Assembly: GCA_041476045.1 (NCBI GenBank)
Contig: JBGOSQ010000001.1
Coordinates: 8,846 to 72,845, forward strand
Direction of reading: 5' to 3'
Origin: Thermoplasmata archaeon
GTDB lineage: Archaea; Thermoplasmatota; Thermoplasmata; Lutacidiplasmatales; UBA184
DNA length: 64,000 nucleotides
Shown here: in pieces, positions 3,580-53,423 of the stretch
Position numbering within the stretch: position 1 is the stretch's first letter
How the letters are laid out: every line of letters starts with the position of its first letter
Position numbers and translations under genes: made by a program
Notes under the pieces: generated by a model
The model's input: only the letters and a program-made list of their open reading frames with translations
Told to the model about the DNA's origin: nothing
Databases searched by the model: none

Positions 3580-3680
3580 CCTCTCGAAGTCGCTCCCCTC
3601 CTCTCGAGGAATCCCCGGCATGCGGTGCGGACACGGCGTCAACTATTATCCCGTTCCGCGCTCCCCGCGGCGGTTGTCCC

Positions 3681-16916: not shown

Positions 16917-16917
16917 C

Positions 16918-18282: not shown

Positions 18283-18323
18283 TGGGCGAACAAGGGGGGG
18301 CGCTCCCTAATAGAATTACTCCG

Positions 18324-34284: not shown

Positions 34285-34458
34285 CAGAATACAACGATTA
34301 CTTAATCATTGTGTAATTTCGTTAAACGATTCACCTTCCCGCGACCGCCGGGTCCGTGCCACTGTGTGGGGGGCGAGAGCAGTTATCCGGTTCCGGCGAA
34401 ATATTTCCCAGTTCTAAGTGCCCCGACCTTAAAGGGCAGAACGCCCGCAGGGGGGTCC
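34285..34458. promoter_or_regulatory. AT-rich divergent control region between the RHH gene and the Kelch surface-protein gene, with direct repeat AACGATT x2
   Basis: acagaatacAACGATTacttaatcattgtgtaatttcgttaAACGATTcacc is the only strongly AT-rich stretch in about 5 kb. Confidence 0.4.
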
Positions 34459-37400
34459 GTGGTCGCCTTCCTTCTGAACCTGGGAGCCTCTCGTCTTTCG
34501 CGCCGAACCCTTGGGATCGCCTTCGTGCTCGCAGTGGTCGGCGCGATGCTCATCGGGTCGATGCCGTCCGGGACCCATCTCGCCCCGTCGGGAACTCCTG
34601 CGATGCCGATCGGGTCGGACGCAGCGGCCAGTGCGCTCGCGGCTGCGAGGACATCGCTGAGTCTCGGGAAGGGTCCGACCTCGGCCGTTACTCCCTCCGC
34701 CACGGGCGGGGGACCGGGCCCGCAGCTGACCGCGGGCGCGTTGGGAACTCCGTGGAACCTATTGTACAATTACTCTCAGCCCTCGGCACGAGCGACCCCC
34801 GCGATGGCGTACGATCCTGCCGCGCACGCGGTCATCTATTTCGGCGGCGGCTGGAACCTCGGACAGTCGGGGAACGACACCTGGACGTTCGCGGGCGGAA
34901 ATTGGACGAACATCAGCGCGACCCTCTCCGTCGCGCCCGGACCGCGGGACGGCGCCGTCATGACATACGACGCAGCGGACCAATATATCGTGCTCTTCGG
35001 CGGCTTCACGAATTCGTTCGCCGGCGCGCCGAACACCTCCTGGGCCAACGGTTCCTACGCCCTCGCCGACACCTGGTCGTTCCAGTGGGGCTATTGGACG
35101 AACATCACCTCTCTTTCCCCTGCAGCGCCGCCCGCGCGCTTCATGGGGGCGATGACCTACGACTACACCGACGGCTACGCCGTCCTCTTCGGCGGTGACG
35201 CCCTCAACGGAACCCTGTTCAATGACACCTGGACGTTCTCCGGCGGCGTTTGGAACGACATCAGCGCGTCCGTGGGAACGGCACCGGCCGGACGTAGTTT
35301 TGCCGCGATGGCCGACGATCCATCGGACGGCTACGTCGTCCTGTTCGGCGGGTGGGACTCGATAAACTGGACGATCTTCAACGACACCTGGACCTTCTCC
35401 GCCGGATCGTGGACCCTGCTGCCGGCCGCTTCCGCTCCGCTGCAGCTGCGCGGCGCTGCGATGGCGTACGACGCCGCCCGGACCGAGCTGGTCCTGTTCG
35501 GTGGGGCCACCTACGGCTATTTCGGCCCCATCGTCCCGCAGGCGGAAACGTGGACCTTTGCCGCGGGCGCATGGACCGACATCTCCTCCACGATCGCGAG
35601 CGCCCCGCCCGCACGATTCTCCGCGGGCATCACGAACATCTCGTCCTCGGGTAGCCTCCTCATGGCCGATGGATGCCTCGCCGCAGGATGCTTCAGCTAC
35701 GTCGACATCTCCGACGGCTGGCTCTACAACGCCTCGGGACCGATCGGGCGCGCGTGGATCCCCGTAGGGGAATCCGACCAACCCTCCCAACGGGCCACGC
35801 CCGCGATGGCGTACGACGCGGTCGACCACTACGTGCTCTACTTCGGCGGCGGTTGGAACGTGGGCGAGTCCGTCGGCGACACCTGGACGTTCGCCAACGG
35901 TACGTGGACCAACATCACCGCGAACCTGACATCAGCGCCCAGTCCGCGCGAAAACGCGTTGATGACGTATGATGCCGGGGATGAGTACGTCCTCCTGTTC
36001 GGCGGTTACACCGATAACGGTCACGGCGGAATTGGTTCGTACACCCTTCACGACACGTGGAAGTTCACGGCGGGAGCCTGGACGAACATCACCGCCTTCT
36101 CTTCGACGGCGCCGCCGCCCCGGTTCATGGGAGCGATGACCTACGACTACACCGACGGCTACGCCCTCCTGTTCGGCGGCGACCAGCTGGGTTACAACGC
36201 GATGGCCGACACTTGGACGTTCAGCACGGGTAACTGGACCGACATCACCACAAGCTCCGGCCCGGCCCCGCCGCCGCGCAACTTCGCATCGCTGACGGAC
36301 GACCCGGCCGACGGGTACTTGCTACTGTTCGGCGGCTGGGACTCCGACACCCACACCGTCTACGGCGACACGTGGACCTTCTCGCACGGCGCCTGGACGC
36401 AGGTCACGACGCCCGTGGCACCGGTCCCGCTGCGCGGCGCCATGGTCGCCTATGAGGCGGTGGGAGGCTACGTCCTGCTCTACGGAGGCGTCACGTACTC
36501 CTCCCCCGGCTGGCCGTTCGGCCTCGAGAGCGAGACGTGGATGTTCTCCGGCGGTAACTGGACGAACCTGACGCCATACATCACGACCGAGCCGCCGGCG
36601 CGGTTCTCGGCGGGAATAACGAACATCTCCGACACCGGATCCATCGTCATGGCGGACGGTTGTCTCGGCCAAGGCTGCATTCCGTTCGAGGACCTCGCGA
36701 ACACCTGGATCTTCAACTGGACGAGCATCAACGGGACGCTGGGCCTCGCCGTTCATCCCACCCCCCTCGACCCGACGGCCTCCTTCGCCGTCACCGCGGT
36801 CGGGGGCAACTGGGCCTACCACTACGCGTACGACGGCCTCCCCGTCGGCTGCACTTCGATCGACTCCGCGTCCCTGACGTGCGTCCCCATCGGGGCCGGG
36901 ACCTATTCGGTCGGCGTGCTGGTCAGCGACACGGCGGGCCGGACCCTCGCGCTCTCGGTGAACCTGACCGTGCTGGGAGAGGAGCTCTCGATCGCGGCCG
37001 TCGCGTCGGTCCCCGAGCTCGATCTCGGTCAGCCGGTCGTCCTGACCGCTGCCGCGACCGGCGGCGCGGGCGCTCCGTGGACCTTTGGCTACCTGGCCCT
37101 GCCGCCCGGATGCACGAGCCAGAACTCGGCGTCGTTGTCGTGCACCCCGGCGCAGAGCGGAACGTTCCACGTCATCGTCACCGTGACCGATGCGTCCGGC
37201 CGAACGGCGACGACGGTGGTCGCGGTCCTGGTCCATCCCGCCGTGGTGGTTTCGGCGCTGGTCTCTGCGTCGACGATCGATCTGAGCGAATCGATCACGA
37301 TGTCGACCGCGGCCTCGTACGGTTCCGCGGTCTACCATTACGTGTGGTCGAACCTGCCGGCCGGCTGCTCGTTGCCAAGCGGTTCCACCGTGCAATGCAC

Positions 37401-38007
37401 CCCCACGACCGTGGGCACCTGGACGATCTCCGCCGGAGCGATCGACACGCTCGGACAGTCCGCGATGGTGGACCCGATCGGTCTCACCGTCAATCCGGTG
37501 CCGACCGTCCAGGGGTTGGCGACCGTCGGCGGGCCTTCGCAGCCTCTCTCCGTAGACCTCGTGGCCGATCTCGCGGGCGGCACGGCGCCGTTCGAGGTCG
37601 CGTGGGTCTTCGGCGATGGTCTGACGGGATCGGGCCTCTCGGTGAGCCACACGTACGGTGCGGGCGGCACGTACGCCCCGCAGGTCTTCGTCAACGACTC
37701 CCGCGGGTTCTCGGCCTCCTGGTCCGTCGAGGTCACCGTCCAGGCTCCCGCGATCGTCCACACCCCGCTCCCCCACATCGGGACGAGCGGAGGCGGCGGG
37801 GGGGCCTGGTACGACGCCATCGGCGGCGAGTTCGGTCTCGGCGTCGTGTTCGGGCTCCTCGCGCTGGCGATGGTGGGCATTTGGGCTGCGCGGCGACGCC
37901 GTGCGCTCGCCGACGCGACCCGGTTCGTCGAGGATCTTCGATCACCCGCGCCGACGATAGGTTCGTCCCACCGCAGCAACGACCCGGCAGACCGGGGGCA
38001 TCCGTAG
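34459..38007 (+). CDS. large surface protein: Tat-like signal peptide, about 12 Kelch/galactose-oxidase-type repeats, 4 PKD/Ig-like domains, C-terminal TM anchor
   Basis: SRRTLGIAFVLAVVGAML signal. Repeated YD...Y.VLFGG....NDTWTF..G.WTNI..APP.R units. Four roughly 95-aa YHY.W..LP.GC...S..C.P...GT..V...V.D..G repeats. GLGVVFGLLALAMVGIWAARRRR anchor. Confidence 0.75.
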   Translation: MVAFLLNLGASRLSRRTLGIAFVLAVVGAMLIGSMPSGTHLAPSGTPAMPIGSDAAASALAAARTSLSLGKGPTSAVTPSATGGGPGPQLTAGALGTPWNLLYNYSQPSARATPAMAYDPAAHAVIYFGGGWNLGQSGNDTWTFAGGNWTNISATLSVAPGPRDGAVMTYDAADQYIVLFGGFTNSFAGAPNTSWANGSYALADTWSFQWGYWTNITSLSPAAPPARFMGAMTYDYTDGYAVLFGGDALNGTLFNDTWTFSGGVWNDISASVGTAPAGRSFAAMADDPSDGYVVLFGGWDSINWTIFNDTWTFSAGSWTLLPAASAPLQLRGAAMAYDAARTELVLFGGATYGYFGPIVPQAETWTFAAGAWTDISSTIASAPPARFSAGITNISSSGSLLMADGCLAAGCFSYVDISDGWLYNASGPIGRAWIPVGESDQPSQRATPAMAYDAVDHYVLYFGGGWNVGESVGDTWTFANGTWTNITANLTSAPSPRENALMTYDAGDEYVLLFGGYTDNGHGGIGSYTLHDTWKFTAGAWTNITAFSSTAPPPRFMGAMTYDYTDGYALLFGGDQLGYNAMADTWTFSTGNWTDITTSSGPAPPPRNFASLTDDPADGYLLLFGGWDSDTHTVYGDTWTFSHGAWTQVTTPVAPVPLRGAMVAYEAVGGYVLLYGGVTYSSPGWPFGLESETWMFSGGNWTNLTPYITTEPPARFSAGITNISDTGSIVMADGCLGQGCIPFEDLANTWIFNWTSINGTLGLAVHPTPLDPTASFAVTAVGGNWAYHYAYDGLPVGCTSIDSASLTCVPIGAGTYSVGVLVSDTAGRTLALSVNLTVLGEELSIAAVASVPELDLGQPVVLTAAATGGAGAPWTFGYLALPPGCTSQNSASLSCTPAQSGTFHVIVTVTDASGRTATTVVAVLVHPAVVVSALVSASTIDLSESITMSTAASYGSAVYHYVWSNLPAGCSLPSGSTVQCTPTTVGTWTISAGAIDTLGQSAMVDPIGLTVNPVPTVQGLATVGGPSQPLSVDLVADLAGGTAPFEVAWVFGDGLTGSGLSVSHTYGAGGTYAPQVFVNDSRGFSASWSVEVTVQAPAIVHTPLPHIGTSGGGGGAWYDAIGGEFGLGVVFGLLALAMVGIWAARRRRALADATRFVEDLRSPAPTIGSSHRSNDPADRGHP

Positions 38008-38067: not shown

Positions 38068-38736
38068 TTGACCTCGCTGGATTTCTGGCTGGGCCTCGGC
38101 TTGGGCCTGGGGGTGTCGGTCGCCGTCCTCGTCGGATTCCGATGGTACTTCCGTCGGGCGATTCAGCAACGGTCTGCCACCGCCTCCGCGCGCCGCTCCG
38201 TACGGGCCGCGACGTCCGCTCCGGAACCCGCGACACCGATGCCACTGTCGGTCTCGGTCGCGCCGATCCGGCCCAATGGCAGCGCCGCCGGAAACCCCGG
38301 GAACGGTGGAATCTCCGCAACAGAGGCCGAGCTCCTCCCCACGCCGGAGAGGCACCGCCCCTCGCCGAGCCCGAACGTCCTCGACGAAGGACCGGTCCGG
38401 CTCTCCCAGCGGATCCTCCTGCACCTAGCGCGCAACGGCGGGCCTTCCGCCGGCGGAACGGCCAGCGAGGCGGTCACGCAGCGCGGGATCGGTACCGCGC
38501 TCGTCGTCACGCAGGGCGCGCTCTCCAGCGTCCTGAGACGATTGGAGGACGGCGGCGCCATCGCATCGGAGAAGGCCCACGTCCGCGACCGCGAGCGTCG
38601 CGTGAAGATCTACGTCCTCACCCCGCGCGGGCGCGAAGTGGTCGCCGCGCTCCGGCAGAGTGCGGTCGCGCGGCGCGGCGTCTCCGTCGCCGCCCCCGAA
38701 GCGCCGCCGAAGCGACCACCGTCGCCCTCTCGATAG
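38068..38736 (+). CDS. membrane-anchored winged-helix (MarR/PadR-like) transcription regulator
   Basis: N-terminal TM (GLGLGLGVSVAVLVGF), Ala/Pro/Ser linker, C-terminal wHTH (RILLHLARNGG...ALSSVLRRLEDGGAIASEK...KIYVLTPRG). Confidence 0.5.
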   Translation: MTSLDFWLGLGLGLGVSVAVLVGFRWYFRRAIQQRSATASARRSVRAATSAPEPATPMPLSVSVAPIRPNGSAAGNPGNGGISATEAELLPTPERHRPSPSPNVLDEGPVRLSQRILLHLARNGGPSAGGTASEAVTQRGIGTALVVTQGALSSVLRRLEDGGAIASEKAHVRDRERRVKIYVLTPRGREVVAALRQSAVARRGVSVAAPEAPPKRPPSPSR

Positions 38737-39093
38737 CCGCGACGCCGGTCCACGGGCGAGGGAGCGACGGCGTCGCCTCCCGTTCTCCTTGGGAGGCGGA
38801 GGCTAGGTCGTGGATCGGGCAGGGGCGAGGATATCCGCGTTCGTACTCTGCCGTCGCGGAAGGGAACGCGAAAGGCGATGACTTCGTACGTGAATCGGCG
38901 ACCGTCGGCCGCCGGGAAGAAGCGACACCAGAAGCAGCGACAGCGGCGTATCGCGGCACGGCGACGGCAGGTCCCGCTCGGCGGGAACCGCAGCGGGTCG
39001 CGCGCGCATTAGCCACCTCCGACCGGAGTCGTGGGGACCGGCCCGGAGAGAGTGCTCCTGGGACTCGGTCGCCGCCCTCGATGAGCCTCCCCA

Positions 39094-39789
39094 GTGGGAC
39101 TGGAGCCGCCGGACCCGAGCGACATCGACCGGCCGCGCCGATACCTGTGCGCGAGTCGTCGAGCGCGCTCGACCGAGGCGCGGTTCGATCGCCCCGACGG
39201 CTTTACGTATCCGACGGAGGCTGTCTCTCGCACGAGCGCGACGTCCGTCGGGGGACCGGAGACGTTCTACGTCAGTCTCAGCGACAATCTCCGGGATTGG
39301 CTCATCTTCGACCGGCTCCAGACGCTGCTGACGAAGATCGGCTCGGCCGACCACCTCCTCCCCCTGCTCGATCGACCCAAGGAGGGGATCGAGCTCTCCG
39401 ACGAGGCGTTCGCGCAGATTCGCTCTGCCTCGGGGATCATCTGCCTGTATTCCCGCGAGGCGGACACGTCGTACTGGGTGCAGCTCGAGCTCTACGTCGC
39501 GAGCGCCCTCGGCAAGCCCGGCTGCCTCGTGATCTTCCCGGAGGTCCCGTTCCCATCGTGGATGACCGGTTCCGTGTTCCGCGTCGAGCTCGAGGGGTTC
39601 AAGGACAGCGGTCCGGGGCTTCCGCCCGGCACGGACGAGGGGCAGTTCTTCCACCGGAGCGTGTTCGCCGAACATTCGCTCCGGTCGATCGTGGCGTTCG
39701 TCGAGGGGGTCCGCGCCCACCGGCTCCCCGCGCTGCCCGAGATCCCGCGTCCGCGGCCCGAGCTCCTTCGGGAGCGTCGGATCACCTAG
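39094..39789 (+). CDS. TIR-like domain protein
   Basis: FYVSLSD (betaA), GIELSDEAFAQIRSASGIICLYSREADTSYWVQLELYVA matches the TIR pattern V.lS..Y..S.WC..EL including the catalytic-Glu position. Strong GC3 bias supports this strand. Start uncertain. Confidence 0.5.
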   Translation: MGLEPPDPSDIDRPRRYLCASRRARSTEARFDRPDGFTYPTEAVSRTSATSVGGPETFYVSLSDNLRDWLIFDRLQTLLTKIGSADHLLPLLDRPKEGIELSDEAFAQIRSASGIICLYSREADTSYWVQLELYVASALGKPGCLVIFPEVPFPSWMTGSVFRVELEGFKDSGPGLPPGTDEGQFFHRSVFAEHSLRSIVAFVEGVRAHRLPALPEIPRPRPELLRERRIT

Positions 39790-39846: not shown

Positions 39847-42800
39847 CTATACGCCGGCCCGGAACTCGGCCGTGAGCCGATCGGAGGCCGACGGATCCAT
39901 CAGCGCCGGGTTCACTGGAAGGATGAGCCGCCCACCGCTCTCCGAGGCGAGCGCATCCAGCTCGTGGAGGAAGTCGATCGTTCGCGCGCTGCCATGGATG
40001 CGGACCAGGTACTCGACGCCCTCGATGTAGGCGGTGCGGCCCGGGCCGCCGCCGAGGAAGGTTCGGAACAGCGCCCGCAGCGTCTCCAGGTCCCCGGGGC
40101 GGACGGATCCTTCCCGTCCCACGTTCGAGAGCCATACGACGCGGACGTTGCGCGACCCCAAGGCCGCGCGCAGCCGCTCCGGGAATTCCCGACTGAGGCA
40201 GAGCCCGGCAACGCCGGCATCGGTGAGCTCGAGGAACGTAGCCCAGGGCCGGTCGGCGGTCGGCTCGGTCCAGACCTCGACGCCCGAGGGCGGGGGCGGC
40301 GGCGCGGCCGGCGCTTCGGGGGCTGGGACCGGGACCGGCGCAGCCGGCTCGGGGGGTGGCGATGGCGCCTCGGGCTCCGGTTCGGGTTCCGGAGGCGACG
40401 GGGGAGTCGGAAGCTCGATTCGGGGCGCGACCGCGAGGATCGGGTCCGGGATCGACGAGGGCAGGAGGGCCGAGGCGACCTCGATGGTGGCCACCGCAGC
40501 CACCGTGGGGAGGGAACGGGGGGGCGGTTCCGATGGGACGCGCTCGAGGATCAGCGGAGGAGCGGGTCGCGTCAGCTCCATGACGGCGACGGGGGGAGGC
40601 GGAGTAGCGGGAGAAATAGGAGGAACGGAGACCTCCGGTGGCTCACGCGGTCGCATCGGGCGGATCCGAGGGGGCGGCGTGCCTCCGAAGCCCTGCACGA
40701 TCGTCGCGGCGAGGACGGGCCCGAATCCCTCGACCTCGGCCAGCTGCTCGTAGGGGGCGTGGGCGACCGCGTCGAACGAGGTGAGCCCGCTCTCCCACGC
40801 CCGCGCGAGTTTCGCGGGCCCGATGAGCGGGCGGCCGAGCGCGTGGTCGAACGATTCCACCGCTTCGCGGATCGCGGCCTCGCGGGCGCGGAGCCCTTCG
40901 TCGAGAAAGTCGATCACGACGTCGTCGCCGATCGGGCGCCCCGTCGCCCGCCGTCGCGGTCGGCGGGGTCGGGGCGGCTTGCGCCGCGAGGAGACACCGA
41001 CGGGGACTCCCGGGATCCAGAGCGACCACCGCTCCCCCCGGCGCGTCCGACCGTGCGTGGTCTCCGCGGAGACGAACGAGGCGGCATCGGCGGCCACGAC
41101 GATCTCGACCCCTTGCAGGAACTGGCTGATGGCGGCCGCGTGGCGCGTCAGTTCCTCGCCGAGCGTGCCCGATGCGGAAAAGACGACGCGGTCGATCGCC
41201 GAGGGGGTCGCGGCGCGATTGAGGCGGCGGCGCAATAGGTGGAGGAGGCGGAAGCCGTCGGGAGTGAGCGCCGGTGGAGCCGCGTCGCCGCGCCCGGGCA
41301 TGTCCGACGGAAGCGTGACGAAGAGGTCCCCGTGCGCCCACGGGATCGGCACGACGCCCGTCGCCAGCGCCTCCGTGATCTCCACCATGCTCGGGGTGAT
41401 CGGGAGCGGATGGCCCTCGAGCACGAGCTCGAGGCTCCGGGCACGGATGCCGTCCTGGATCCGCGTCGGGCTCATTCCCTCGAGCATCCGAAGGATCCGC
41501 GGCGCCTGGAACGGGTAGGCGCGCTGGATCTCCTCGGGTACGGCGTGGATCCGGACCTGCTTGCCCTCCCAGGGCTGAGAGGGGGAAGCGACGTCGACGC
41601 GTTCGACCCCGGCGAGTCGCTGGAGGACGGCCCGGTGCGATCGGAGCTCGCCGGCCACGGTCTCATCGGTGACGGAGAGGACGATCGCGGGGAGGTGCGA
41701 ATCCGGCGCGAGACCGAGCTCGCTCCGGTACTCTCTCAGCGTGTCGACGACCGAGCGCCATCGCGCGTAGGAGAGTTCGAGCGGCGAATCGAGCAGCAGC
41801 TCCTGGCTCGGCGTGAGCGGTCGCTCGAAGATGCTCGTGCCGTCGCCGCGGAAGCCGCGATGGATCGCCTCCATCGTGAACGGGGCGATCGGCGCGTACA
41901 GTTCCGCCCACAACGGCAGGACGTGCCCGAGGACCCGGCACGCGGCCGCCTTGGGCAGGGGGAACCCGGGAAGATCGAGGCGCGAGCGGGAGAACGCGAG
42001 GTAGCCGGCGCGCAGCTCCTCCTCGAAGAACCGCACGAGTCGGTCCTGCGCCACGTCGACCGCGCCAGTCTCGTAGGCCCGGATGACGTCGATCCGCATC
42101 CGTTCGAAGAGCGACAGGAACGCGCGATCCTCTTCCGGGAGCTCGGCGACGTGGCCGCCGATCGAACGCGGGTCCGGTTCGTAGCCGTCGCGAAGGAACC
42201 GGTCGAGGATCTCGCGTGCGACCTGCCAGATCTTGCGGAGCCGCCGTTCCTCCTGATGACGGCGATCGCCGAGACCGGGGTCGTTGGCCCGCGGCGAAGT
42301 GGCGGTACGCAGGAGCGCGGCCCGCAGCGCGTCCGCCGGGGCGTCGAGCGAGGTCGTCTCGCCCTCGGCCTCGAAGGGAAGCGTCGGCATCGGGACGACG
42401 CGGACCTCGCCGGGGGCCGCGCCCGCGGCCGCGAGTGCGACGGCGTGGTGGACGAGCGCCGGAGCCCGACGTCGTTCGGGGACGTAGAGACGTACGGCAT
42501 CCGCGTCCGGGAACGGACGGTCCGTTGCCCAGATCGCGAGCGCCTCCTGCAGCGAGGGAAGGAGGCGGCGCGCCACCGTGCGCCAGTGCGCGCCGCAGGT
42601 GCATCGCTCCGGCGCGTCGGCGATTGGAGAGAGACGTCCGCAATGGACGCATTCCAACAGATGCGGCGCGTCGGCCGCCTCGGTCGTGCGCCACTCGCTC
42701 ACCGGCCACGCGACCGGGTCCTCGGTCTTCGGGAACGACTCTGCGGGGGCGAGGCGTGCCAGCCGGTCCCGGACCGCGGGCGGTGCGGTGCTCGCGTCGA

Positions 42801-43935
42801 GGCACCAGGCACGCGACGGTTGCCAGTAGAGCGCCGTGCCGCAGACGATGCAGTGGGGCACACCGCGGTGGACGCGCAGCTGCGCGAACAGGAGCCCGGA
42901 CTCGGTGAGGTCACGGAGGACGAACGCCTCGGCCACGTCGACGGGCAGGCCGGCGTACTTGTGCTGGAGGTCCCGGACGAGCTGACCCTCGGCATCGACG
43001 ACCGGCCAGCCCGGGATCCCGAGATGGAACGCCGCCGCGGCGTCGCCGGCACCGTGGGCAGGGACGAGGGCCACCGCGCCGGTGCCGGAGTCATCGACCT
43101 CGGTGGACGCGGCGATCTGCCCCGCCGGGACCGGAAGGCTCGCGAGCGTGGGGAACTCGGTCGCGAGCGGATGCTCGTAGCGGAGACCGACGAGCGTCTC
43201 TCCCTTCTGCTCCTCGAGGACCTCGATCTCGCATCCCTCGAGCCACGACTTGAGACGGCCGATGGCCGAGCTCAGGACGAGGAGCACCTCCTCCGTGCCG
43301 CGGCGTCGATAGCGGATCCGGGCGTACGTGAGGTCCGGGTGGACCAAGACCGCGCTCGTCCCCAGGAGCTTCCACGCGCTGTCGATCCAGACGAGAAGGC
43401 TCGTCCTCGGGGACTTGCCGTCCAGGAGGAAGCGCACGAGGTAGGCGTCGCCGTCCTCGGCCGAGTACACGATGCCCTCCGGGGAGCGGGGGGCGCGGCA
43501 CGCCGGGCACGACCGGAGCGGGAGCTCGCGGCTCGCGAGCAGGCCGTCGCGTGCGAGGTGGTCGACCATCTCCTGGATCTGCGGCGGGCTCGCGACCTCC
43601 GCGAGGGGCTCGAGCCGACCGTTGCCGACCCAAACCCCCGAGGCGGCCAACATCGGTCGGAGGACCTCGAGCGCCGGGTGATCGGTCCGACGTGCCAGGA
43701 GGCGGCCGCGGGTGGGATGTCCTTCCAATCCGAGGAAACGGGATTCGGCATCCGCCCGGACGGCGCGCTGGAGGAAGGAGATCGCCGAGTCGTAGGCCGC
43801 GAGCGCGGCCACCATCTGGTGGAGTCGCGGCCCCGTGCCGCGGCCTCCCGATGTCGGTAGCGACCTCGCCTTCCAGAACGCCGCCGATTCGGCCTGTACC
43901 TGGGCCGGTTCGTAACGGGCCGGAAGTGAACGCAT
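39847..43935 (-). CDS. isoleucyl/valyl-tRNA-synthetase-like pseudo-enzyme fused to HhH motif, Pro-rich linker and an unknown C-terminal alpha/beta domain (1362 aa)
   Basis: Class-Ia aaRS architecture retained: zinc knuckle CPACRAP; YLVRF...LLVWIDSAWKLLGTSAVLVHPDLTY where WTTTPWTLP sits; SGTGAVALVPAHG CP1; CIVCGTALYWQPSRAW. Catalytic HIGH, EGSDQHRGWF and KMSKS positions read PRLHQM, PERRRAPALV and GETTS. The C-terminus has GLTSFDAVAHAPYEQLAEVEGFGPVLAATIV (HhH) and PEPEPEAPSPPPEPAAPVPVPAPE. Confidence 0.6.
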   Translation of the reverse strand: MRSLPARYEPAQVQAESAAFWKARSLPTSGGRGTGPRLHQMVAALAAYDSAISFLQRAVRADAESRFLGLEGHPTRGRLLARRTDHPALEVLRPMLAASGVWVGNGRLEPLAEVASPPQIQEMVDHLARDGLLASRELPLRSCPACRAPRSPEGIVYSAEDGDAYLVRFLLDGKSPRTSLLVWIDSAWKLLGTSAVLVHPDLTYARIRYRRRGTEEVLLVLSSAIGRLKSWLEGCEIEVLEEQKGETLVGLRYEHPLATEFPTLASLPVPAGQIAASTEVDDSGTGAVALVPAHGAGDAAAAFHLGIPGWPVVDAEGQLVRDLQHKYAGLPVDVAEAFVLRDLTESGLLFAQLRVHRGVPHCIVCGTALYWQPSRAWCLDASTAPPAVRDRLARLAPAESFPKTEDPVAWPVSEWRTTEAADAPHLLECVHCGRLSPIADAPERCTCGAHWRTVARRLLPSLQEALAIWATDRPFPDADAVRLYVPERRRAPALVHHAVALAAAGAAPGEVRVVPMPTLPFEAEGETTSLDAPADALRAALLRTATSPRANDPGLGDRRHQEERRLRKIWQVAREILDRFLRDGYEPDPRSIGGHVAELPEEDRAFLSLFERMRIDVIRAYETGAVDVAQDRLVRFFEEELRAGYLAFSRSRLDLPGFPLPKAAACRVLGHVLPLWAELYAPIAPFTMEAIHRGFRGDGTSIFERPLTPSQELLLDSPLELSYARWRSVVDTLREYRSELGLAPDSHLPAIVLSVTDETVAGELRSHRAVLQRLAGVERVDVASPSQPWEGKQVRIHAVPEEIQRAYPFQAPRILRMLEGMSPTRIQDGIRARSLELVLEGHPLPITPSMVEITEALATGVVPIPWAHGDLFVTLPSDMPGRGDAAPPALTPDGFRLLHLLRRRLNRAATPSAIDRVVFSASGTLGEELTRHAAAISQFLQGVEIVVAADAASFVSAETTHGRTRRGERWSLWIPGVPVGVSSRRKPPRPRRPRRRATGRPIGDDVVIDFLDEGLRAREAAIREAVESFDHALGRPLIGPAKLARAWESGLTSFDAVAHAPYEQLAEVEGFGPVLAATIVQGFGGTPPPRIRPMRPREPPEVSVPPISPATPPPPVAVMELTRPAPPLILERVPSEPPPRSLPTVAAVATIEVASALLPSSIPDPILAVAPRIELPTPPSPPEPEPEPEAPSPPPEPAAPVPVPAPEAPAAPPPPPSGVEVWTEPTADRPWATFLELTDAGVAGLCLSREFPERLRAALGSRNVRVVWLSNVGREGSVRPGDLETLRALFRTFLGGGPGRTAYIEGVEYLVRIHGSARTIDFLHELDALASESGGRLILPVNPALMDPSASDRLTAEFRAGV

Positions 43936-47236: not shown

Positions 47237-50200
47237 ATGCCGTTCCCCGAAACGTTCGTCGAGACCCTCTCCCTCGCGGTCGAGCCTCCCGGGGACGGGG
47301 ACTGGGGGCCCGCGCTTACCGCCCTCGCCCAGATCCTGGAGATGCTCCGGACCGCCGAGGACGCCTTCGGCGAATCGATCCGGACGCGGGCCCAGGCGCT
47401 CGCCGCCTGGTCGGGTGAATCGGAGGACCGACTCCCGGCCCTCGAGGGTCGACTGCGTACGGCCCTCGAACCGCTACGCGAGGGGGACATCCCGAAGGCG
47501 CTGGGACAGGTCAATGACGCGATCACCCACGAGCTACCGAAGGTGGGAGCGCGCCGCGAGGTCGCCCGGGCCGACGGCACGGCCCTCCTCGGTGCCGCGC
47601 GGGACCTTGGGCTTCCGAACGACGTTCTCGATCGCGCGCTGCGTCTCGACTCGCAGGCAACCCCCATCGACTGGAAGGCGACCGTCGAGGCGGTCGAGTC
47701 GGCGAACAACCAGGTCGGCGAGGCGCTTCGCTCGCGCGTCGCCGCCACGTTGGATTCGCTCCGCGCGACGTTGGAGTCGCTCCGAGAATACGGCGTCGAC
47801 CCCACGGAAGCGCTCGCCCAGATCGGGGAGCTGATGGGAGCCGTTCCCACCGCGCCGCCGAACCAGGTGCCGCGACTGCTCGAGCAGGCGCGCGGGATCA
47901 CCGAAGAGCCCGTGGTCGGGATCGTGGCGAGCCTCATCGACACCGTCCGCCCGCGCCTGGTCGAAGCCCGGCGCTTGGGGCGTGACCCGAGCGAGGTGTT
48001 CGCAACGATGAACCGAGCGCGCGAGGCGCTCCGGCTCAAGATCTACTCCGAGGCGCTCGCCGCGAGCCAGGAAGCGCTCGACCGCGTGAGCAACCTCACC
48101 GCCGACCTGGACTCGGCCCGCGAGGAGGCGGAATCGTTGGGGGAGCTCCTCCGCCGTCTCGAGGGGGCGCGATTCCCGACCGACCGGTTCGCCCAGGCGC
48201 TCCAGAAGATCCGCGACCGTCTCGCGGCCGTCGAGCTCGAGGCGGCCCAGACGCTGCTGCGCGAGACCCTCCGCACGATGGGCCAGGAAGCGGCCCAGTT
48301 CTTTTCCGCCCGGCTCGCGATCGTCGAGTCCGTCCTGCCGTTCGCGCGCGAGCGCGGGTTCCTCCCTCCCGACCTCGAGGACGATCTCGCGACCGTCCGA
48401 CGCCACCTGGACGACGGTCGTATCGCCGACGCGGGCGAACTCCTGAGCGCGCTCGAGGTCCGCCTACGGACCACGGCCCTCCCGTACGTCACGCGACGGA
48501 TCGAGGAGCTCGAGAAGGGGTTCACCGAGATCCCCGACGAGTCGCTCATCACTCCCGTCCGCCGCCTGCTCGCCGACGCCGACGTGAACCTCCACGTGAA
48601 GGAGGACCTCCCCGCATCGGCGGAGAGCCTTCGGCGCGCGGAACGCGAGTTCACCTCGGTCTTCGCCGCCCATGCTTCCGCCATGGTCGAGCTCCTCGAG
48701 GAGGAGCGCCGGACCTTGGAAGCGATGGGCGGGGCGGGCGACGAGATCCAGCGCCAGATCGACGAGGTCCAACAGATCTTCAACATGGGGGATTTCGTCA
48801 AGGCCTCGCGGGCGTCGCAGGAGATCCGGACCCGCGCCCACCAGCAGCAGCTCCTCCGCGGCGAGGATGCCATATCGCACGCCAAGCTCGCTCTCGTCGA
48901 GCTCGGCAAGATGGGCGTCGAGGCGGGGCCGCTCCGCACGACGCTCGAGCAGGCGCTAGAGGCCGCGAAGGGGCAGCGATATTCGGACGCGTACCGGATC
49001 GCTGCGGAAACCCAGGACGCCGCCTTGCGGCTCAAGGCGAAGGCCCAGTCGATCCTCGACGGTCTCGCGGCGGCGAACGAGCTGTTCCAGGAGCTCAAGT
49101 CGGGGGGCGTGACCATCGATGTCCACCGCGACAAGATCCGGCTCGCCCAGGTCGCCTACCAGGCGCTCGATTTCGACGGGGCGAAGGACACGCTCGATGT
49201 CCTGATGGCGCTGATGCGCTCCGAGCTCGCCAACGCGGAAACGCGTCGCCTCATCGCCGAGGCCCGGCTCCTCCGCGAGGACGGCCAGCGCCTCTCGATC
49301 CCGACCGACGCGCTGGCCGCCCGGATTACCGAGGCGCAGAGCGCGCTCGACGACGGCCGTTCGTCCGAGGCGCTCCAGAGCGCGCGCCGCGTCGGAACCG
49401 AGCTCGTCGAGACGCTGCGCCCCGTCCTTGCGGAGAACCTGCGGACCCTCGAGCAGGACCTCGAGGTGGCCCAGTCGGCCGGCCTCGACATCGCGCCGGT
49501 CGTCGAGGTCCTCGGGGAGGCGCGGCGCCGTCTCGGCCTTCCGGTTCCGGTGGGCGTCGCCGAGCTCGTCGAGCGCGCGAGCGCCCAGCTCGTGGAGACC
49601 CGCGGCTTCCTCGAGCACGCCGACCGCGCCCTCAAGCGCGCGGCGGAGGCGTTGAACCAGGGCGAGCTCGTGCGCGCCTCGGTCCCGAACGGACGCGATC
49701 GCCTCGCGGCGGTCGAGACGACCCTCAAGCGGCGCGACTACGCGCGCGCGATCGAGCTCGCCGGCACGCTCGAGCGCGAGATGCTCCAGGTGACCTACCA
49801 GCAGGTGTCGAAGAACCTCGCCGGATTCCAGGGCGTCCTCGTTCGGGCGCGCCAGGCCGGCGGGGACACCGCGATCGCGGAGAACCTTTTGATGCAGGCG
49901 CGCCAGGCGCTCGAGGAGGGTCGTCCCCTCGAGGCGCTCCAGCTCGCCTCCCGTAGCGAGGCCGAACTAGAGCGCGTCGAGCTCCAGCTACGGATCGCCG
50001 AAGGTTCCCTCCGCACGATGCAGGGCAAGCTCGAGTCGGCGGAGAAGGAGGGACTGCAGGCCCGCGTCGCGCGGGAGAAGCTCGCCGAGGCCGAGCAGTC
50101 GTTCCGCGATCACCTCTACCCGATCGTCCTCGAGCTCGCGATCGACGCCTCCGACTCGCTCGCGGTCTCGCGCGAGGGGTTCCGGCGGGCGCGCGAGGCG

Positions 50201-51373
50201 CTCGATTCCGCGGACCGGCAGGTCAAGTCGGCGATGGAGCTCGGCGCAGACGTCGCCGAGGCGATGCCGGTGCTCGAGGCGGCGCGCTCGGCTCAGCAGA
50301 CCGGCGACTATCCCGACGCGACGCGCAAGGGTCGGGAGGTCGCGGAGATGGCGCGGTGGGCGATCGAGCGGCTCTACTCCGGCGCCCTCAGCGATCTGCG
50401 TCACCTGACGGAAACGGCGCGCGCCGCCGGCCTTCCCGACGACGCGGCCGATCCGAGCCGCGGGGTCGAGGAGGTCGAGACCGCGCTCCAGACGCGCGAT
50501 TGGAAGCGCGCGAACGAGCTGCTCCAGTCGGCGCGCGAGTCCACGACGGCCGCGATGACCGCGCGCCTGGACGGTCGGATCGCCGAGATCGAGTCGCTCT
50601 ACGCCGCGATGGGAGCCCCGCCGGAGCCCGAGATCCCGCTGCGGGAGGCGGCGCGGGCCCGGATCGCCGAGGCGCGCACCCGGGGGGCGTTCGCGGAAGC
50701 CCTCGGGGTCCTTCGGGACGAGGAGGCGCGCATCGCCGAGCATCAGCGCACCGACCTGCAGGCGCGGGTCACCGCGCTTCGCGAGCGCCTCTGGATCGGC
50801 GAAAAGCTGGGCGTCGACACGACACCCGTCATGGAGATCTTCAGCGAAGGTCAGCTCGCGCTCCAGTCGGGGAAGCTGGTCGAGGTCCCGGCATTCGTCG
50901 ATCGGGGCGAGGAGCTCCTCCGCTCGCTCGTCGCGACCCGGGTCCCGGAGCGCCTCCGCGAGACCCAGACGGAGCTCGTCTTCGCCCAAGAGGGGCTTCA
51001 CGTCGCGCTCGACGACGTCGCCGACCGTCTCAAGGCCGTCGGCGCGCTCCTCTCGAGCGGCTCCCCTATCGAGGCCGCCCAGCTCGTCCTGACCTCGACC
51101 GAGGAGCTCAACCGACGCAAGGCGCTCCACCGCGAGCTGATGAACCTCCACTATCTCATCGACGCCGCGCTGGGACGCGCGGCGGAGCGCCACGTCGACA
51201 CCGCGGCCGCCCGCCGGCTCCTCGACGAGTCGATCCACGTGCGCGTGACCGACTACGCCCTTGCGCTCGAAAAGGCGCGCGAAGCGCTCCGGCTCCTGCA
51301 GGGACAGCTGCAGGGGACGGAGAGCGTGACGCCCGCGAACTTCTGGCCGTTCCGCAAGGCGCCCGGGGCCTGA
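47237..51373 (+). CDS. giant all-alpha repetitive protein (at least 1378 aa; frame open back to 46838 with no canonical start)
   Basis: Low-complexity, Ala/Leu/Glu/Arg-rich helical repeats (...EALQ.AR....EL...LR...L..L..DLEVAQSAGLD..PVVEVL.EARRRL...). The same frame upstream of 47237 encodes TKILQEKAELLKRQRQTAEQSFHDAQLRAKLL..., a clear coiled coil, yet contains no ATG/GTG/TTG. Confidence 0.6.
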   Translation: MPFPETFVETLSLAVEPPGDGDWGPALTALAQILEMLRTAEDAFGESIRTRAQALAAWSGESEDRLPALEGRLRTALEPLREGDIPKALGQVNDAITHELPKVGARREVARADGTALLGAARDLGLPNDVLDRALRLDSQATPIDWKATVEAVESANNQVGEALRSRVAATLDSLRATLESLREYGVDPTEALAQIGELMGAVPTAPPNQVPRLLEQARGITEEPVVGIVASLIDTVRPRLVEARRLGRDPSEVFATMNRAREALRLKIYSEALAASQEALDRVSNLTADLDSAREEAESLGELLRRLEGARFPTDRFAQALQKIRDRLAAVELEAAQTLLRETLRTMGQEAAQFFSARLAIVESVLPFARERGFLPPDLEDDLATVRRHLDDGRIADAGELLSALEVRLRTTALPYVTRRIEELEKGFTEIPDESLITPVRRLLADADVNLHVKEDLPASAESLRRAEREFTSVFAAHASAMVELLEEERRTLEAMGGAGDEIQRQIDEVQQIFNMGDFVKASRASQEIRTRAHQQQLLRGEDAISHAKLALVELGKMGVEAGPLRTTLEQALEAAKGQRYSDAYRIAAETQDAALRLKAKAQSILDGLAAANELFQELKSGGVTIDVHRDKIRLAQVAYQALDFDGAKDTLDVLMALMRSELANAETRRLIAEARLLREDGQRLSIPTDALAARITEAQSALDDGRSSEALQSARRVGTELVETLRPVLAENLRTLEQDLEVAQSAGLDIAPVVEVLGEARRRLGLPVPVGVAELVERASAQLVETRGFLEHADRALKRAAEALNQGELVRASVPNGRDRLAAVETTLKRRDYARAIELAGTLEREMLQVTYQQVSKNLAGFQGVLVRARQAGGDTAIAENLLMQARQALEEGRPLEALQLASRSEAELERVELQLRIAEGSLRTMQGKLESAEKEGLQARVAREKLAEAEQSFRDHLYPIVLELAIDASDSLAVSREGFRRAREALDSADRQVKSAMELGADVAEAMPVLEAARSAQQTGDYPDATRKGREVAEMARWAIERLYSGALSDLRHLTETARAAGLPDDAADPSRGVEEVETALQTRDWKRANELLQSARESTTAAMTARLDGRIAEIESLYAAMGAPPEPEIPLREAARARIAEARTRGAFAEALGVLRDEEARIAEHQRTDLQARVTALRERLWIGEKLGVDTTPVMEIFSEGQLALQSGKLVEVPAFVDRGEELLRSLVATRVPERLRETQTELVFAQEGLHVALDDVADRLKAVGALLSSGSPIEAAQLVLTSTEELNRRKALHRELMNLHYLIDAALGRAAERHVDTAAARRLLDESIHVRVTDYALALEKAREALRLLQGQLQGTESVTPANFWPFRKAPGA

Positions 51374-53320: not shown

Positions 53321-53423
53321 GCTCCCGTAGTCTAGTGGTCAAGGATAGAGGCCTCTCGAGCCTCTGACGCGGGTTCAAATCAGCGTGGGAACCACCCCAC
53401 CTCTGAAACTCCCGCCGGGAGCA
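53321..53423 (+). tRNA. tRNA-Glu (anticodon CUC) with 30-nt intron in the T-loop (about 53381..53410)
   Basis: Acceptor GCTCCCG/CGGGAGC (7 bp), D-stem GTCT/GGAT, anticodon stem GAGGC/GCCTC with loop CTCTCGA (U33, CUC), T-stem GCGGG...CCCGC only after removing CAGCGTGGGAACCACCCCACCTCTGAAACT; discriminator A. The spliced length is 73 nt. Confidence 0.75.

What the first reader, a model, noticed from the sequence alone, without database searches (positions are those of the whole stretch)
39094..39789. Stand-alone TIR-like domain protein retaining the catalytic-glutamate position, at the end of the surface-protein / membrane-regulator cluster
The residues FYVSLSD...GIELSDEAFAQIRSASGIICLYSREADTSYWVQLELYVA follow the TIR betaA and betaC/alphaC consensus (v.lS..Y..S.WC..EL), including the Glu used by NADase-active TIRs. 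Prokaryotic TIR proteins are characteristic of anti-phage signalling systems such as Thoeris ThsB and others. The gene sits downstream of a membrane-anchored wHTH regulator and convergent with the pseudo-aaRS. No canonical partner (SIR2/SLOG/Macro effector) is visible within the window. It may therefore be an orphan TIR, or part of a non-canonical module.
Basis: partly seen in the sequence, partly recalled or inferred. Interest (0 to 1): 0.55.

Follow-up and report, generated by a model that had tools for sequence, protein, structure and literature searches.

The report
Orphan archaeal TIR-domain protein
This is a real gene for a small, very divergent TIR-domain protein in a Thermoplasmata archaeon; it keeps the residues that TIR enzymes use to cleave NAD+ but has no partner gene beside it, so it is a new, unannotated member of a well-known protein kind rather than a new kind of system.

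Summary
The + strand ORF 39094..39789 is a real gene. Its GC1/2/3 is .67/.50/.88, and dN/dS is 0.12 against an 88%-identical Thermoplasmata homologue. The opposite-strand ORF is not coding.

On its own the protein only grazes TIR models (TIR_2 E=0.029). An exhaustive HMMER search of 1.84 billion representatives found 17 relatives. Several of these pass Pfam's thresholds for TIR_2 or ThsB_TIR. The family profile hits mainly TIR proteins in the PDB, including all the best matches. An AlphaFold model (pLDDT 85) matches TIR domains and the related N-glycosidases.

Box 1, the BB loop (D-x-P-x-x-G) and the C-helix WxxxE (W128, E132) are all present. No SIR2, SLOG, Macro or PADLOC partner lies near it, here or in the related loci.

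Its closest relatives sit at the same chromosomal place, beside a pseudo-aaRS/DUF835 gene and eIF5A, among housekeeping genes. More distant relatives sit in mobile or defence contexts.

Two of eight clade members have lost the Glu, but all keep a clade-specific loop (GFKDSGPxLPPGTDE).

The first 57 codons are probably not part of the protein.

This is a new member of a known kind, of modest interest.

The parts
39094..39789 (+). Annotated ORF of the TIR-like protein (231 aa, GTG start, TAG stop)
   Evidence: Listed. GC1/2/3 is .67/.50/.88. dN/dS is 0.12 against L004. An identical 231-aa product is called on two other assemblies.
39094..39261 (+). N-terminal extension of 56-57 codons, probably not part of the conserved protein
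   Evidence: Homologues start 12 or fewer residues before betaA. GC1/2/3 here is .68/.67/.81 against .67/.45/.90 for the domain. AF2 pLDDT is 40-61 with no secondary structure. There is no other ATG, GTG or TTG in frame before betaA.
39202..39210 (+). TTTACGTAT, a TATA-box-like element inside the annotated ORF, about 90 nt before the conserved Arg-Asp codons
   Evidence: It is the only TTTACNTAT in the 64 kb window. It aligns with GGTTTACATATCC (L008), GGCTTTACCCGCC (L010), GGCTTACCTACC (L011) and GGTTTTCATCG (L009) at the same distance. In L010 the called GTG start lies 30 nt downstream of it. The window has an in-frame ACG (39232) in that column.
39262..39714 (+). TIR-like domain (residues 57-207): betaA-alphaA-betaB-BB loop-alphaB-betaC-alphaC-betaD-betaE-EE loop-alphaE
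   Evidence: AF2 models have pLDDT 85/pTM 0.83 and pLDDT 78/pTM 0.73. Foldseek top hits are TIR domains. The family profile hits TIR proteins in the PDB. 17 of 19 family members hit TIR_2.
39262..39297 (+). betaA / box 1 (TFYVSLS) followed by the conserved Arg67-Asp68
   Evidence: See the alignment. R and D are each present in 12 of 17 sequences. This segment aligns to 'vFlSFrgeD' of RUN1/RPV1.
39370..39387 (+). BB-loop / box 2 equivalent: D93-R-P95-K-E-G98 (D-x-P-x-x-G)
   Evidence: Family columns are D 12/18, P 14/19 and G 12/19. The segment lies between betaB and alphaB in the model. The equivalence to the 'RDxxPG' box 2 of TIR domains rests on established knowledge.
39475..39489 (+). C-helix WxxxE motif, W128-V-Q-L-E132 (E132 is the putative catalytic Glu)
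   Evidence: W is present in 14/20 and E in 18/20 of the family. The motif aligns with the Glu of RUN1/RPV1, BcTir and ThsB. The motif is described in PMC10641520.
39592..39639 (+). Clade-specific loop E167-GFKDSGPGLPPGTD-E182 between betaE and alphaE
   Evidence: An 18-residue run (ELEGFKDSGPGLPPGTDE, L166-E183; the interval annotated here is E167-E182) is identical in the 46%-identical P0002. G, D, G, P, L, P, T, D and E are invariant in all 8 clade members, including the two that lack the Glu. The 'TD' is partly kept in distal members.
39733..39753 (+). Conserved C-terminal proline motif L214-P-E-I-P218-R-P220 (hydrophobic-P-x-hydrophobic-P-x-P)
   Evidence: P218 is present in 16/17 and P220 in 17/18 sequences. 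The motif lies after alphaE in a region of low model confidence.

Best explanation
The gene encodes a stand-alone, highly divergent TIR-domain protein (Pfam STIR clan, nearest TIR_2 and ThsB_TIR/DUF1863). It belongs to a small, unannotated family centred on soil and sediment Thermoplasmata archaea.

Shown:
- It is a real gene under purifying selection.
- It has the five-stranded TIR fold.
- The window copy keeps box 1, the BB loop D-x-P-x-x-G and the C-helix WxxxE with the Glu that TIR NADases use.
- No known TIR partner is encoded nearby.

Inferred:
- It works as TIR enzymes do. Single TIR domains are inactive. Head-to-tail self-association through the BB loop builds a composite active site in which E132 cleaves the nicotinamide-ribose bond of NAD+. 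The result is either NAD+ depletion or an ADPR-derived product.
- Because the protein is a bare domain, the trigger for assembly must act on the domain itself. The strictly conserved betaE-alphaE loop (GFKDSGPxLPPGTDE) and the C-terminal P-x-x-P-x-P tail are the candidate sites.
- It acts as a self-contained sensor/effector, or with an unlinked receptor, and is not a Thoeris system.
For: Coding.

Homology chain:
- The window protein matches P0011 at E=1.1e-9, P0014 at 2.8e-7 and P0018 at 2.2e-4 in a search of 1.84e9 proteins.
- P0011, P0013, P0014, P0016 and P0018 pass the TIR_2 gathering score. P0010, P0011, P0013, P0014 and P0019 pass that of ThsB_TIR.
- 17 of 19 members hit TIR_2.
- The family profile against the PDB returns mainly TIR proteins, including all the best matches (BcTir 8fz9 at 0.0025, RPV1, RUN1, ThsB 9uv0, Roq1, TLR1/2). 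In these alignments the Glu columns coincide.
- Independent weak hits to this protein or its close homologue fall on the same region: PADLOC ThsB at 0.021 and NCBIfam TIR-like FxsC at 0.0066.

Fold: the AF2 model has pLDDT 85 and pTM 0.83 with betaA-E/alphaA-E topology. Foldseek PDB top hits are IL-1RAcPb TIR, TIR-STING, SPARTA TIR and SARM1 TIR. The top BFVD hit is a TIR/WD40 protein at 5e-5.

Motifs: E132 18/20, W128 14/20, S120 18/20, F202 19/20. The role of WxxxE is described in PMC10641520.

Defence or mobile context of the wider family:
- L013 lies next to an MmeI-type restriction-modification enzyme, a transposase and a Schlafen/AlbA_2 gene.
- L015 lies between integrase, HNH and resolvase genes.
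- L005 lies next to an HNH_2 gene.

Stand-alone TIRs are treated as likely NAD+-depleting effectors in 10.64898/2025.12.03.692087.
Against: - The protein alone is below every curated threshold (TIR_2 15.3 bits against a cutoff of 28).
- Within its own 8-member clade the WxxxE motif is intact in only 4 members. Only the Glu is kept in 2. Both residues are lost in 2 (P0005 has Q, P0006 has V). The clade loop stays invariant in all 8. The function conserved across the clade therefore may not be NAD+ cleavage.
- The clade sits at a fixed chromosomal position among housekeeping genes, not in a defence island.
- No effector was found.
- No activity can be measured here.
- Foldseek E-values are modest (about 1e-4 to 1e-3, TM about 0.5). 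N-deoxyribosyltransferase-like enzymes score almost as well.
Confidence: 0.5

Rival explanations
1. It is a TIR fold that no longer works as an NADase. In this Thermoplasmata clade the domain serves as a scaffold or ligand/partner-binding module. Its conserved function resides in the GFKDSGPxLPPGTDE loop and the C-terminal proline motif, possibly in a lineage-specific cellular (non-defence) role. The Glu in the window copy is an ancestral leftover.
For: - Two of eight clade members have replaced the Glu (Q, V) and four lack the Trp, yet all eight keep the loop nearly invariant.
- The gene is vertically inherited at one locus, beside the pseudo-aaRS/DUF835 gene and eIF5A. This holds across genomes whose TIR proteins are only 36-46% identical, while eIF5A is 88% identical.
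- The neighbours are housekeeping genes with no PADLOC hits.
- Purifying selection is strong, with dN/dS 0.12.
Against: - The Glu is kept in 18 of 20 family members, and in the window copy together with W128, S120 and the BB loop. This is more than drift would be expected to preserve.
- Loss of the Glu in a minority of paralogues or orthologues is also seen in bona fide enzymatic TIR families (established knowledge).
- No binding partner was identified. The adjacent genes are convergent or variable, so no operon supports a module.
Confidence: 0.3
2. It is a signal-producing TIR of a Thoeris-like system (ThsB-like). Its effector is encoded elsewhere in the genome or is one of the uncharacterised neighbours: the wHTH protein at 38068..38736, the pseudo-aaRS/DUF835 protein, or the small ORFs.
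For: There are ThsB-type profile hits (PADLOC ThsB at 0.021; ThsB_TIR in 13 of 19 members; ThsB 9uv0 in the PDB list). The neighbourhood with the DUF835 (inactivated KaiC signalling domain, PMC5847659) protein recurs in four loci.
Against: - No SIR2, SLOG, Macro or other known ThsA-type domain is present in the window or in eight related loci.
- The TIR gene is convergent with the DUF835 gene.
- The genes between them differ in every locus: none, PadR plus a 218-aa gene, an alpha/beta hydrolase, or a CitMHS transporter. The TIR gene is inverted in L011.
- The wHTH neighbour is not conserved.
- This pattern fits synteny by descent, not an operon.
Confidence: 0.12
3. It is not a TIR proper. It is a member of the structurally related nucleoside 2-deoxyribosyltransferase / DNPH1 / MilB-BcmB N-glycosidase group and acts on a nucleotide rather than on NAD+.
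For: Foldseek lists MilB, BcmB, DNPH1 and PDT with TM 0.43-0.54, interleaved with the TIR hits. Several BFVD hits are deoxyribosyltransferases. One family member hits PF05014 at E=0.0035.
Against: Sequence profiles favour TIR models by a wide margin: 17 of 19 members against 1 of 19, with the best E-value 3.6e-8 and gathering scores passed. The PDB profile search lists no NDT-like protein. TIR-specific box 1, the BB loop and WxxxE are present.
Confidence: 0.06
4. The ORF is not a real gene (a chance ORF in GC-rich DNA), or the opposite-strand ORF 38803..39720 is the gene.
For: Long spurious ORFs abound in this 70% GC window. The 5' 165 nt of the ORF do look non-coding.
Against: - Codon-position GC is .67/.50/.88 for the + ORF and .82/.55/.68 for the opposite ORF.
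- dN/dS is 0.12.
- There are 17 homologues with a coherent fold.
- The opposite ORF has no family hit.
Confidence: 0.02

Closest known systems
Pfam TIR_2 (PF13676) and ThsB_TIR / DUF1863 'MTH538 TIR-like' (PF08937), STIR clan
   Same: It shares the five-stranded alpha/beta TIR fold, box 1, the BB loop and the C-helix WxxxE with Glu. Distal members of the same family pass both models' gathering scores. JGI names one member 'MTH538 TIR-like domain (DUF1863)'.
   Different: - The window protein itself scores 15.3 bits against a cutoff of 28 and carries no precomputed Pfam domain.
- alphaD is replaced by a loop.
- A 25-residue conserved betaE-alphaE loop and a C-terminal proline motif are family- or clade-specific.
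Thoeris ThsB (TIR sensor/signal synthase of the ThsA/ThsB anti-phage systems)
   Same: It is a small, essentially single-domain prokaryotic TIR-like protein with the catalytic Glu position. ThsB profiles are among the best hits.
   Different: There is no ThsA-type effector next to it, here or in any related locus. The close clade is not in a defence island. No signal molecule is known.
BcTir of the Bacillus cereus BcTir/BcTpr two-gene anti-phage system (PDB 8fz9; bioRxiv 10.1101/2023.05.26.542521)
   Same: It is the best solved-structure match of the family profile (E=0.0025, aligned over betaA to betaD with the Glu aligned). It too is a roughly 140-aa stand-alone TIR.
   Different: BcTir is operonic with a TPR protein. 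No TPR gene is adjacent here. Only the remote hit P0021 fuses TIR to TPR.
Stand-alone or minimally decorated NADase TIRs (AbTir, BtpA/TcpB, PdTIR; archaeal TcpO reported by Essuman et al. 2018, from my own knowledge)
   Same: It shares the WxxxE C-helix motif with a catalytic Glu (PMC10641520). It also works, or is predicted to work, without an operon partner.
   Different: Those are bacterial virulence or defence proteins, often with an N-terminal coiled coil. Sequence identity to them is undetectable by pairwise search. This clade is chromosomally fixed in an archaeal lineage.
Nucleoside 2-deoxyribosyltransferase-like N-glycosidases (MilB, BcmB, DNPH1)
   Same: They have a similar fold, with a Glu at the equivalent position. 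Foldseek TM is 0.43-0.54.
   Different: There is no sequence-profile support. The TIR boxes are present.

Membership tests
TIR domain superfamily (Pfam STIR clan: TIR_2 / ThsB_TIR) | Significant match of the protein itself to a curated TIR profile | tested here: not met
   TIR_2 gives E=0.029 and 15.3 bits against a cutoff of 28. PADLOC ThsB gives 0.021. There is no NCBIfam hit for the window protein.
TIR domain superfamily (Pfam STIR clan: TIR_2 / ThsB_TIR) | Homology to proteins that do pass the curated thresholds (transitive membership) | tested here: met
   phmmer from the window gives P0011 at 1.1e-9, P0013 at 1.1e-7 and P0014 at 2.8e-7 in 1.84e9 proteins. These score 30.6-34.3 bits on TIR_2 and 21.5-33.5 bits on ThsB_TIR, above the cutoffs. 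17 of 19 members hit TIR_2.
TIR domain superfamily (Pfam STIR clan: TIR_2 / ThsB_TIR) | Flavodoxin-like fold with five parallel strands betaA-betaE and TIR-type connectivity; closest structures are TIR domains | tested here: met
TIR domain superfamily (Pfam STIR clan: TIR_2 / ThsB_TIR) | Conserved boxes: box 1 (betaA), box 2 / BB loop (D-x-x-P-G-like), C-helix WxxxE, aromatic residue in alphaE (box 3) | tested here: met
   The window has TFYVSLS, D93-R-P-K-E-G98, W128-V-Q-L-E132 and F202.
Enzymatic (NADase/cyclase) TIRs | Catalytic Glu in the C helix | tested here: met
   E132 is present and conserved in 18 of 20 members. It aligns with the Glu of RUN1, RPV1, BcTir and ThsB. It is lost in the orthologues P0005 (Q) and P0006 (V).
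Enzymatic (NADase/cyclase) TIRs | NAD+ cleavage activity dependent on that Glu and on self-association | not testable with these tools
   This needs a biochemical assay.
Thoeris defence system (ThsA + ThsB) | TIR gene adjacent to, or in an operon with, a ThsA-type effector (SIR2-SLOG, TM-Macro, or other described effectors) | tested here: not met
   Pfam and PADLOC scans of the neighbours found none. None was found in the related loci L004-L015.
Thoeris defence system (ThsA + ThsB) | Location in defence islands / sporadic, mobile distribution | tested here: not met
   The close clade is syntenic beside the DUF835 gene and eIF5A among housekeeping genes. Only distal family members lie in restriction-modification, transposase or integrase contexts.
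Thoeris defence system (ThsA + ThsB) | Production of a cADPR-isomer or His-ADPR signal on infection | not testable with these tools
   Experimental.
Nucleoside 2-deoxyribosyltransferase-like (PF05014) / DNPH1 / MilB | Profile match to the family | tested here: not met
   Only 1 of 19 members hits it, at E=0.0035. No such protein appears in the PDB profile search. The similarity is structural only.
DUF4062 / NIR TIR-like NADases (Swarozyc) | Profile match to DUF4062 | tested here: not met
   DUF4062 is not among the families hit by any of the 19 members at E<=1. The family itself is known from 10.64898/2026.05.01.722283.

The most novel reading that the evidence does not exclude
In this Thermoplasmata lineage a mobile, defence-type TIR was captured and fixed in the chromosome and has been repurposed. 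Its conserved function now depends on the invariant GFKDSGPxLPPGTDE loop and the proline tail rather than on the catalytic Glu. It acts together with its persistent neighbour, the pseudo-aminoacyl-tRNA-synthetase/HhH/inactivated-KaiC (DUF835) signalling protein. This would be a non-defence, cellular TIR function in archaea. A side possibility is that the gene is translated from a non-canonical (ACG-type) start on a short-leader mRNA, which would keep a potentially toxic enzyme at very low level.
Probability: 0.1. Interest if true: 0.65.

Novelty: new member of a known kind. Interest (0 to 1): 0.33.

Why it matters
TIR domains are the shared currency of innate immunity in animals, plants and bacteria, but archaeal TIRs are barely studied.

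This protein adds a small, unannotated archaeal TIR family that curated models miss. Only 17 representatives were found among 1.84 billion clusters, and none in 185,579 GTDB species genomes by motif scan.

The family shows two regimes. Distal members lie in mobile or defence contexts. One clade is fixed at a single chromosomal site among housekeeping genes, where the catalytic Glu is sometimes lost but a new loop is invariant. If that clade proves to have a non-NADase or non-defence role, it would be a natural example of domestication of an immune enzyme within archaea.

As it stands, it is a sound annotation improvement and a candidate for a simple NADase assay. It is not a new kind of system.

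Tried and rejected
1. Opposite-strand ORF 38803..39720 as the real gene. Rejected on codon-position GC and the absence of any family hit.
2. Direct family assignment of the protein alone. Only sub-threshold hits were found. A PDB profile search with just two sequences gave an irrelevant phycobilisome-linker match at E about 1.
3. Word-indexed homology search. It found only 2 proteins, then 7 with the alignment. The exhaustive HMMER job was needed.
4. Locus scans. These returned no relatives: genome contigs and metagenome contigs with the clade alignment, with the pseudo-aaRS protein and with the single protein. Alignments A3 and A5 were too diverse to derive patterns.
6. tblastn against the plasmid and phage collections gave no match. 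PHROGs gave only phrog_6988 (unknown function), and only for distal members.
7. Search for a partner. Pfam and PADLOC scans on 40 neighbouring or other window proteins found nothing defence-related.
8. wHTH neighbour as a conserved partner. Rejected: the PadR gene in L004 lies downstream of the TIR gene and is not homologous to the window wHTH at E<1e-3.
9. DUF4062/NIR membership. Rejected.
10. Rfam over the whole window found only one tRNA.
Full report
**The observation**

The window has about 70% G+C, so spurious ORFs occur in all six frames. The + strand ORF 39094..39789 (231 aa, GTG start) nevertheless shows the coding signature of this genome. GC at codon positions 1/2/3 is .67/.50/.88. 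The certain genes beside it show the same pattern: the Anticodon_1/DUF835 gene has .76/.54/.87 and the Kelch/PKD gene has .59/.58/.85.

An 88%-identical partial homologue lies on a Thermoplasmata MAG contig (L004, GCA_022750395.1). Against it, 39.75 synonymous and 20.25 non-synonymous differences over 115 codons give dN/dS = 0.12. The gene is real and under purifying selection. eIF5A, eIF2-alpha, fibrillarin/Nop5 and GGGP synthase in the window mark the organism as an archaeon.

**Is it a TIR?**

On its own the protein only grazes TIR models:
- Pfam TIR_2 gives E=0.029 and 15.3 bits against a cutoff of 28.
- PADLOC ThsB gives 0.021.
- The homologue P0002 hits NCBIfam 'TIR-like protein FxsC' at 0.0066.

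The PADLOC and Pfam hits cover the same betaC/alphaC stretch and the FxsC hit lies just before it, but none is significant.

The word-indexed search found only one other relative. The exhaustive HMMER search of 1.84 billion cluster representatives found 17 relatives at E<=1e-3. They form a coherent alignment. Scanned individually, 17 of 19 members hit TIR_2 and 13 hit ThsB_TIR. P0011, P0013, P0014, P0016 and P0018 pass the TIR_2 gathering score. P0010, P0011, P0013, P0014 and P0019 pass that of ThsB_TIR. The window protein is linked to these at E=1.1e-9 (P0011), 1.1e-7 (P0013) and 2.8e-7 (P0014).

A profile of the family searched against all PDB sequences returns mainly TIR proteins, including all the best matches: BcTir 8fz9 (0.0025), RPV1, RUN1, ThsB 9uv0, Roq1 and TLR1/2 (the tail of the list holds a 'putative signal transduction protein', 3hyn, and an FNR/CRP regulator). 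The family's 'S-x-W-V-x-x-E-L' aligns on 'SRWCLDEL' of RUN1/RPV1 and on 'SYWVPHEV' of BcTir.

An AlphaFold2 model of residues 50-231, built with the 20-sequence alignment, is confident (pLDDT 85, pTM 0.83). Its element order is betaA-alphaA-betaB-alphaB-betaC-alphaC-betaD-betaE-alphaE. Foldseek against the PDB puts the IL-1RAcPb TIR, TIR-STING, the SPARTA TIR and the SARM1 TIR on top. These are interleaved with the structurally related N-glycosidases MilB, BcmB and DNPH1. A generic flavodoxin-like protein (a diflavin flavoprotein) appears only at rank 45. The best viral match is a TIR/WD40 protein.

**Motifs**

Residue numbers follow the ORF. The window copy has:
- box 1 (T57-FYVSLS), followed by R67-D68;
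- a BB-loop D93-R-P-K-E-G98;
- the end of betaC at S120;
- the C-helix W128-V-Q-L-E132;
- F202 in alphaE.

Family-wide frequencies are S120 18/20, S126 17/20, W128 14/20, V129 17/20, E132 18/20, A136 18/20, P154 19/20, G168 19/20 and F202 19/20. The WxxxE motif and its catalytic Glu in NADase TIRs are described in PMC10641520. The claim that the catalytic-glutamate position is retained is therefore correct for this protein.

**What is unusual**

Four features stand out.

1. The family is tiny and unannotated. It has no precomputed Pfam domain, and sources call it 'hypothetical protein'. A scan of 185,579 GTDB species genomes for the clade motif found no relative.

2. The eight closest members share a nearly invariant loop, G-F-[KV]-D-[SNH]-G-P-x-L-x-P-x-T-D-E, between betaE and alphaE. 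It is 18 identical residues in a 46%-identical pair. Almost all members carry a C-terminal P-x-x-P-x-P motif, with P218 in 16/17 and P220 in 17/18.

3. In that close clade the catalytic motif is less constant than the loop.
   - WxxxE is intact in four members (window, P0003, P0004, P0008).
   - The Trp is replaced in P0002 and P0007.
   - Both Trp and Glu are lost in P0005 (Q) and P0006 (V).
   - All eight keep the loop.

4. The genomic context splits the family in two.
   - In the window, L004, L009 and L011, the gene lies within 0-1.5 kb of a pseudo-aaRS (Anticodon_1 only)/HhH/DUF835 gene of 1362-1537 aa, where the gene is complete, and a few genes from eIF5A (in the window, L009 and L011; the L004 contig ends before that region). 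The TIR proteins of L009 and L011 are 45% and 36% identical to the window protein, and that of L004 88%.
   - In those loci eIF5A is 88% identical and the DUF835 protein is 54% identical (L009).
   - The genes between the two differ every time: none, PadR plus a 218-aa gene, an alpha/beta hydrolase, or a CitMHS transporter. The TIR gene is convergent with, or inverted relative to, the DUF835 gene. This is synteny by descent, not an operon.
   - Distal members lie in mobile or defence settings. One sits directly upstream of an MmeI-type restriction-modification enzyme with a DDE transposase and a Schlafen/AlbA_2 gene (L013/L014). One sits between integrase, HNH and resolvase genes (L015). One sits beside an HNH_2 gene (L005).

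**Partners**

No SIR2, SLOG, Macro, TPR or other known TIR-associated effector is encoded in the window. Pfam was run on 40 proteins and PADLOC on the ten nearest uncharacterised neighbours. The remaining genes are recognisably housekeeping by direct reading of their translations. None is present in the related loci either. The upstream wHTH (PadR/MarR-like) is not a conserved neighbour. The protein is therefore an orphan TIR, and the defining system-level features of Thoeris are tested and not met.

**The start of the gene**

Homologues begin 2-12 residues before betaA. The window ORF has 57 extra N-terminal residues. They are rich in R, P, D and S. Their codon signature is weaker (.68/.67/.81). 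They are predicted to be disordered (pLDDT 40-61).

Inside this extension lies TTTACGTAT (39202..39210), the only TTTACNTAT in 64 kb. It aligns with similar T/A-rich elements at the same distance, about 90 nt before the conserved Arg-Asp codons, in L008, L009, L010 and L011. Other genes in the window have TATATA-like boxes 25-35 nt before their start codons.

In L010 the called GTG start lies 30 nt after the element. In that column the window, L008 and L009 have an in-frame ACG. L008 has a GTG seven codons later. The window and L009 have no ATG, GTG or TTG between the element and betaA. The called start in L009 cuts off betaA, although betaA is encoded in frame upstream.

Two readings remain. 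The window gene may use the distant GTG 39094, which has no TATA-like box within 70 nt upstream. Alternatively, initiation may be non-canonical. I could not resolve this. It is recorded as unexplained.

**Mechanism**

The best-supported reading is the mechanism established for TIR enzymes. A single TIR domain is inactive. BB-loop-mediated head-to-tail association creates a composite pocket in which the C-helix Glu cleaves the nicotinamide-ribose bond of NAD+. This yields ADPR or cyclic or conjugated ADPR products. That account is established knowledge; the motif is supported.

For a bare domain, the trigger must act on the domain itself. The invariant loop and the proline tail are the obvious candidates for this (inference). 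Stand-alone TIRs are treated as probable NAD+-depleting effectors in the 2025 systematic survey.

Against this stand the partial loss of Glu and Trp among the orthologues and the fixed housekeeping location. These keep alive a rival in which the clade has shifted to a non-catalytic or different function centred on the loop. I give the NADase reading 0.5, the repurposed-scaffold reading 0.3, a dispersed Thoeris-like signalling role 0.12, an NDT-like nucleotide glycosidase 0.06, and 'not a gene' 0.02.

**Novelty and verdict**

The thing itself is a new, previously unannotated member of a well-known kind (prokaryotic stand-alone TIR). It has clade-specific decorations and an unusual, vertically inherited setting in Thermoplasmata.

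A specialist would not be very surprised by an orphan archaeal TIR. Three features raise it a little above routine: the contrast between a fixed clade and mobile distal members, the loop that is conserved where the Glu is not, and the start-codon puzzle. Interest is 0.33.

Noticed in passing
window 39847-43935 (-); also L009 3649-8262, L011 2361-6572, L004 1607-3761: This is a 1362-aa protein. It has a class-I aaRS anticodon-binding domain (Anticodon_1) but no Pfam hit to a synthetase catalytic core. It also has HhH motifs, a Pro-rich linker and a C-terminal DUF835 (inactivated KaiC signalling domain, PMC5847659). It is conserved in related archaea (54% identity in L009) and always lies near eIF5A.
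   Followed up: partly
window 39202-39262; L008 ~7932-7983; L009 ~2100-2199; L010 ~7971-8001: A conserved TATA-like element lies inside the annotated 5' end of the TIR ORF. The window and L009 have no canonical start codon between it and strand betaA, only an in-frame ACG where L010 has its GTG start. This suggests either a mis-set start or non-canonical initiation.
   Followed up: partly
L013 8001-11591 / L014; L015 1484-4601; L005 1432-3416: Distal members of the same TIR family sit in mobile or defence contexts. One lies immediately upstream of an MmeI-type restriction-modification enzyme with a DDE transposase and a Schlafen/AlbA_2 gene. One lies between integrase, HNH_3 and resolvase genes. 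One lies beside an HNH_2 gene.
   Followed up: partly
window 34309-38007 (+); L009 3-2009 (-); L013 3285-6200 (-); L010 4530-7826 (+): Large Kelch/PKD (or Flg_new_2) surface-type proteins recur within about 2 kb upstream of the TIR-like gene in four loci. They are about 32% identical to each other. This could be inherited synteny, or simply reflect that such genes are abundant in these archaea.
   Followed up: no
window 38068-38736 (+): The upstream wHTH ORF has a hydrophobic N-terminal segment only if the TTG start at 38068 is used. Gene callers on the identical Logan contigs start it at the ATG at 38239 (165 aa), which removes the membrane anchor. GC3 stays elevated from about 38060, so the long form is plausible but unproven.
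   Followed up: partly
window 16137-20813 (-): Three tandem KaiC-like genes (one strong, one intermediate and one weak match) lie directly downstream of an 829-aa HerA/DUF87-like P-loop ATPase. This is a possible archaeal KaiC signalling cluster, 18 kb from the TIR gene.
   Followed up: no
window 47237-51373 (+): A 1378-aa ORF has a strong coding signature (GC3 0.91) but no Pfam or PADLOC hit.
   Followed up: no
L004 435-1564: In the 88%-identical relative, a PadR gene and a 218-aa membrane/zinc-ribbon-like gene are inserted between the TIR gene and the DUF835 gene. In the window these two genes are separated by only 57 bp.
   Followed up: partly
window 53321-53393 (+): A single tRNA is the only Rfam match above the gathering score in the window.
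   Followed up: no
window 2836-3642 (-) and 3477-4277 (+): The Asn-synthase-like and HAD-phosphatase ORFs overlap by about 166 nt as listed. The start of the HAD gene is probably further downstream than the first start codon.
   Followed up: no
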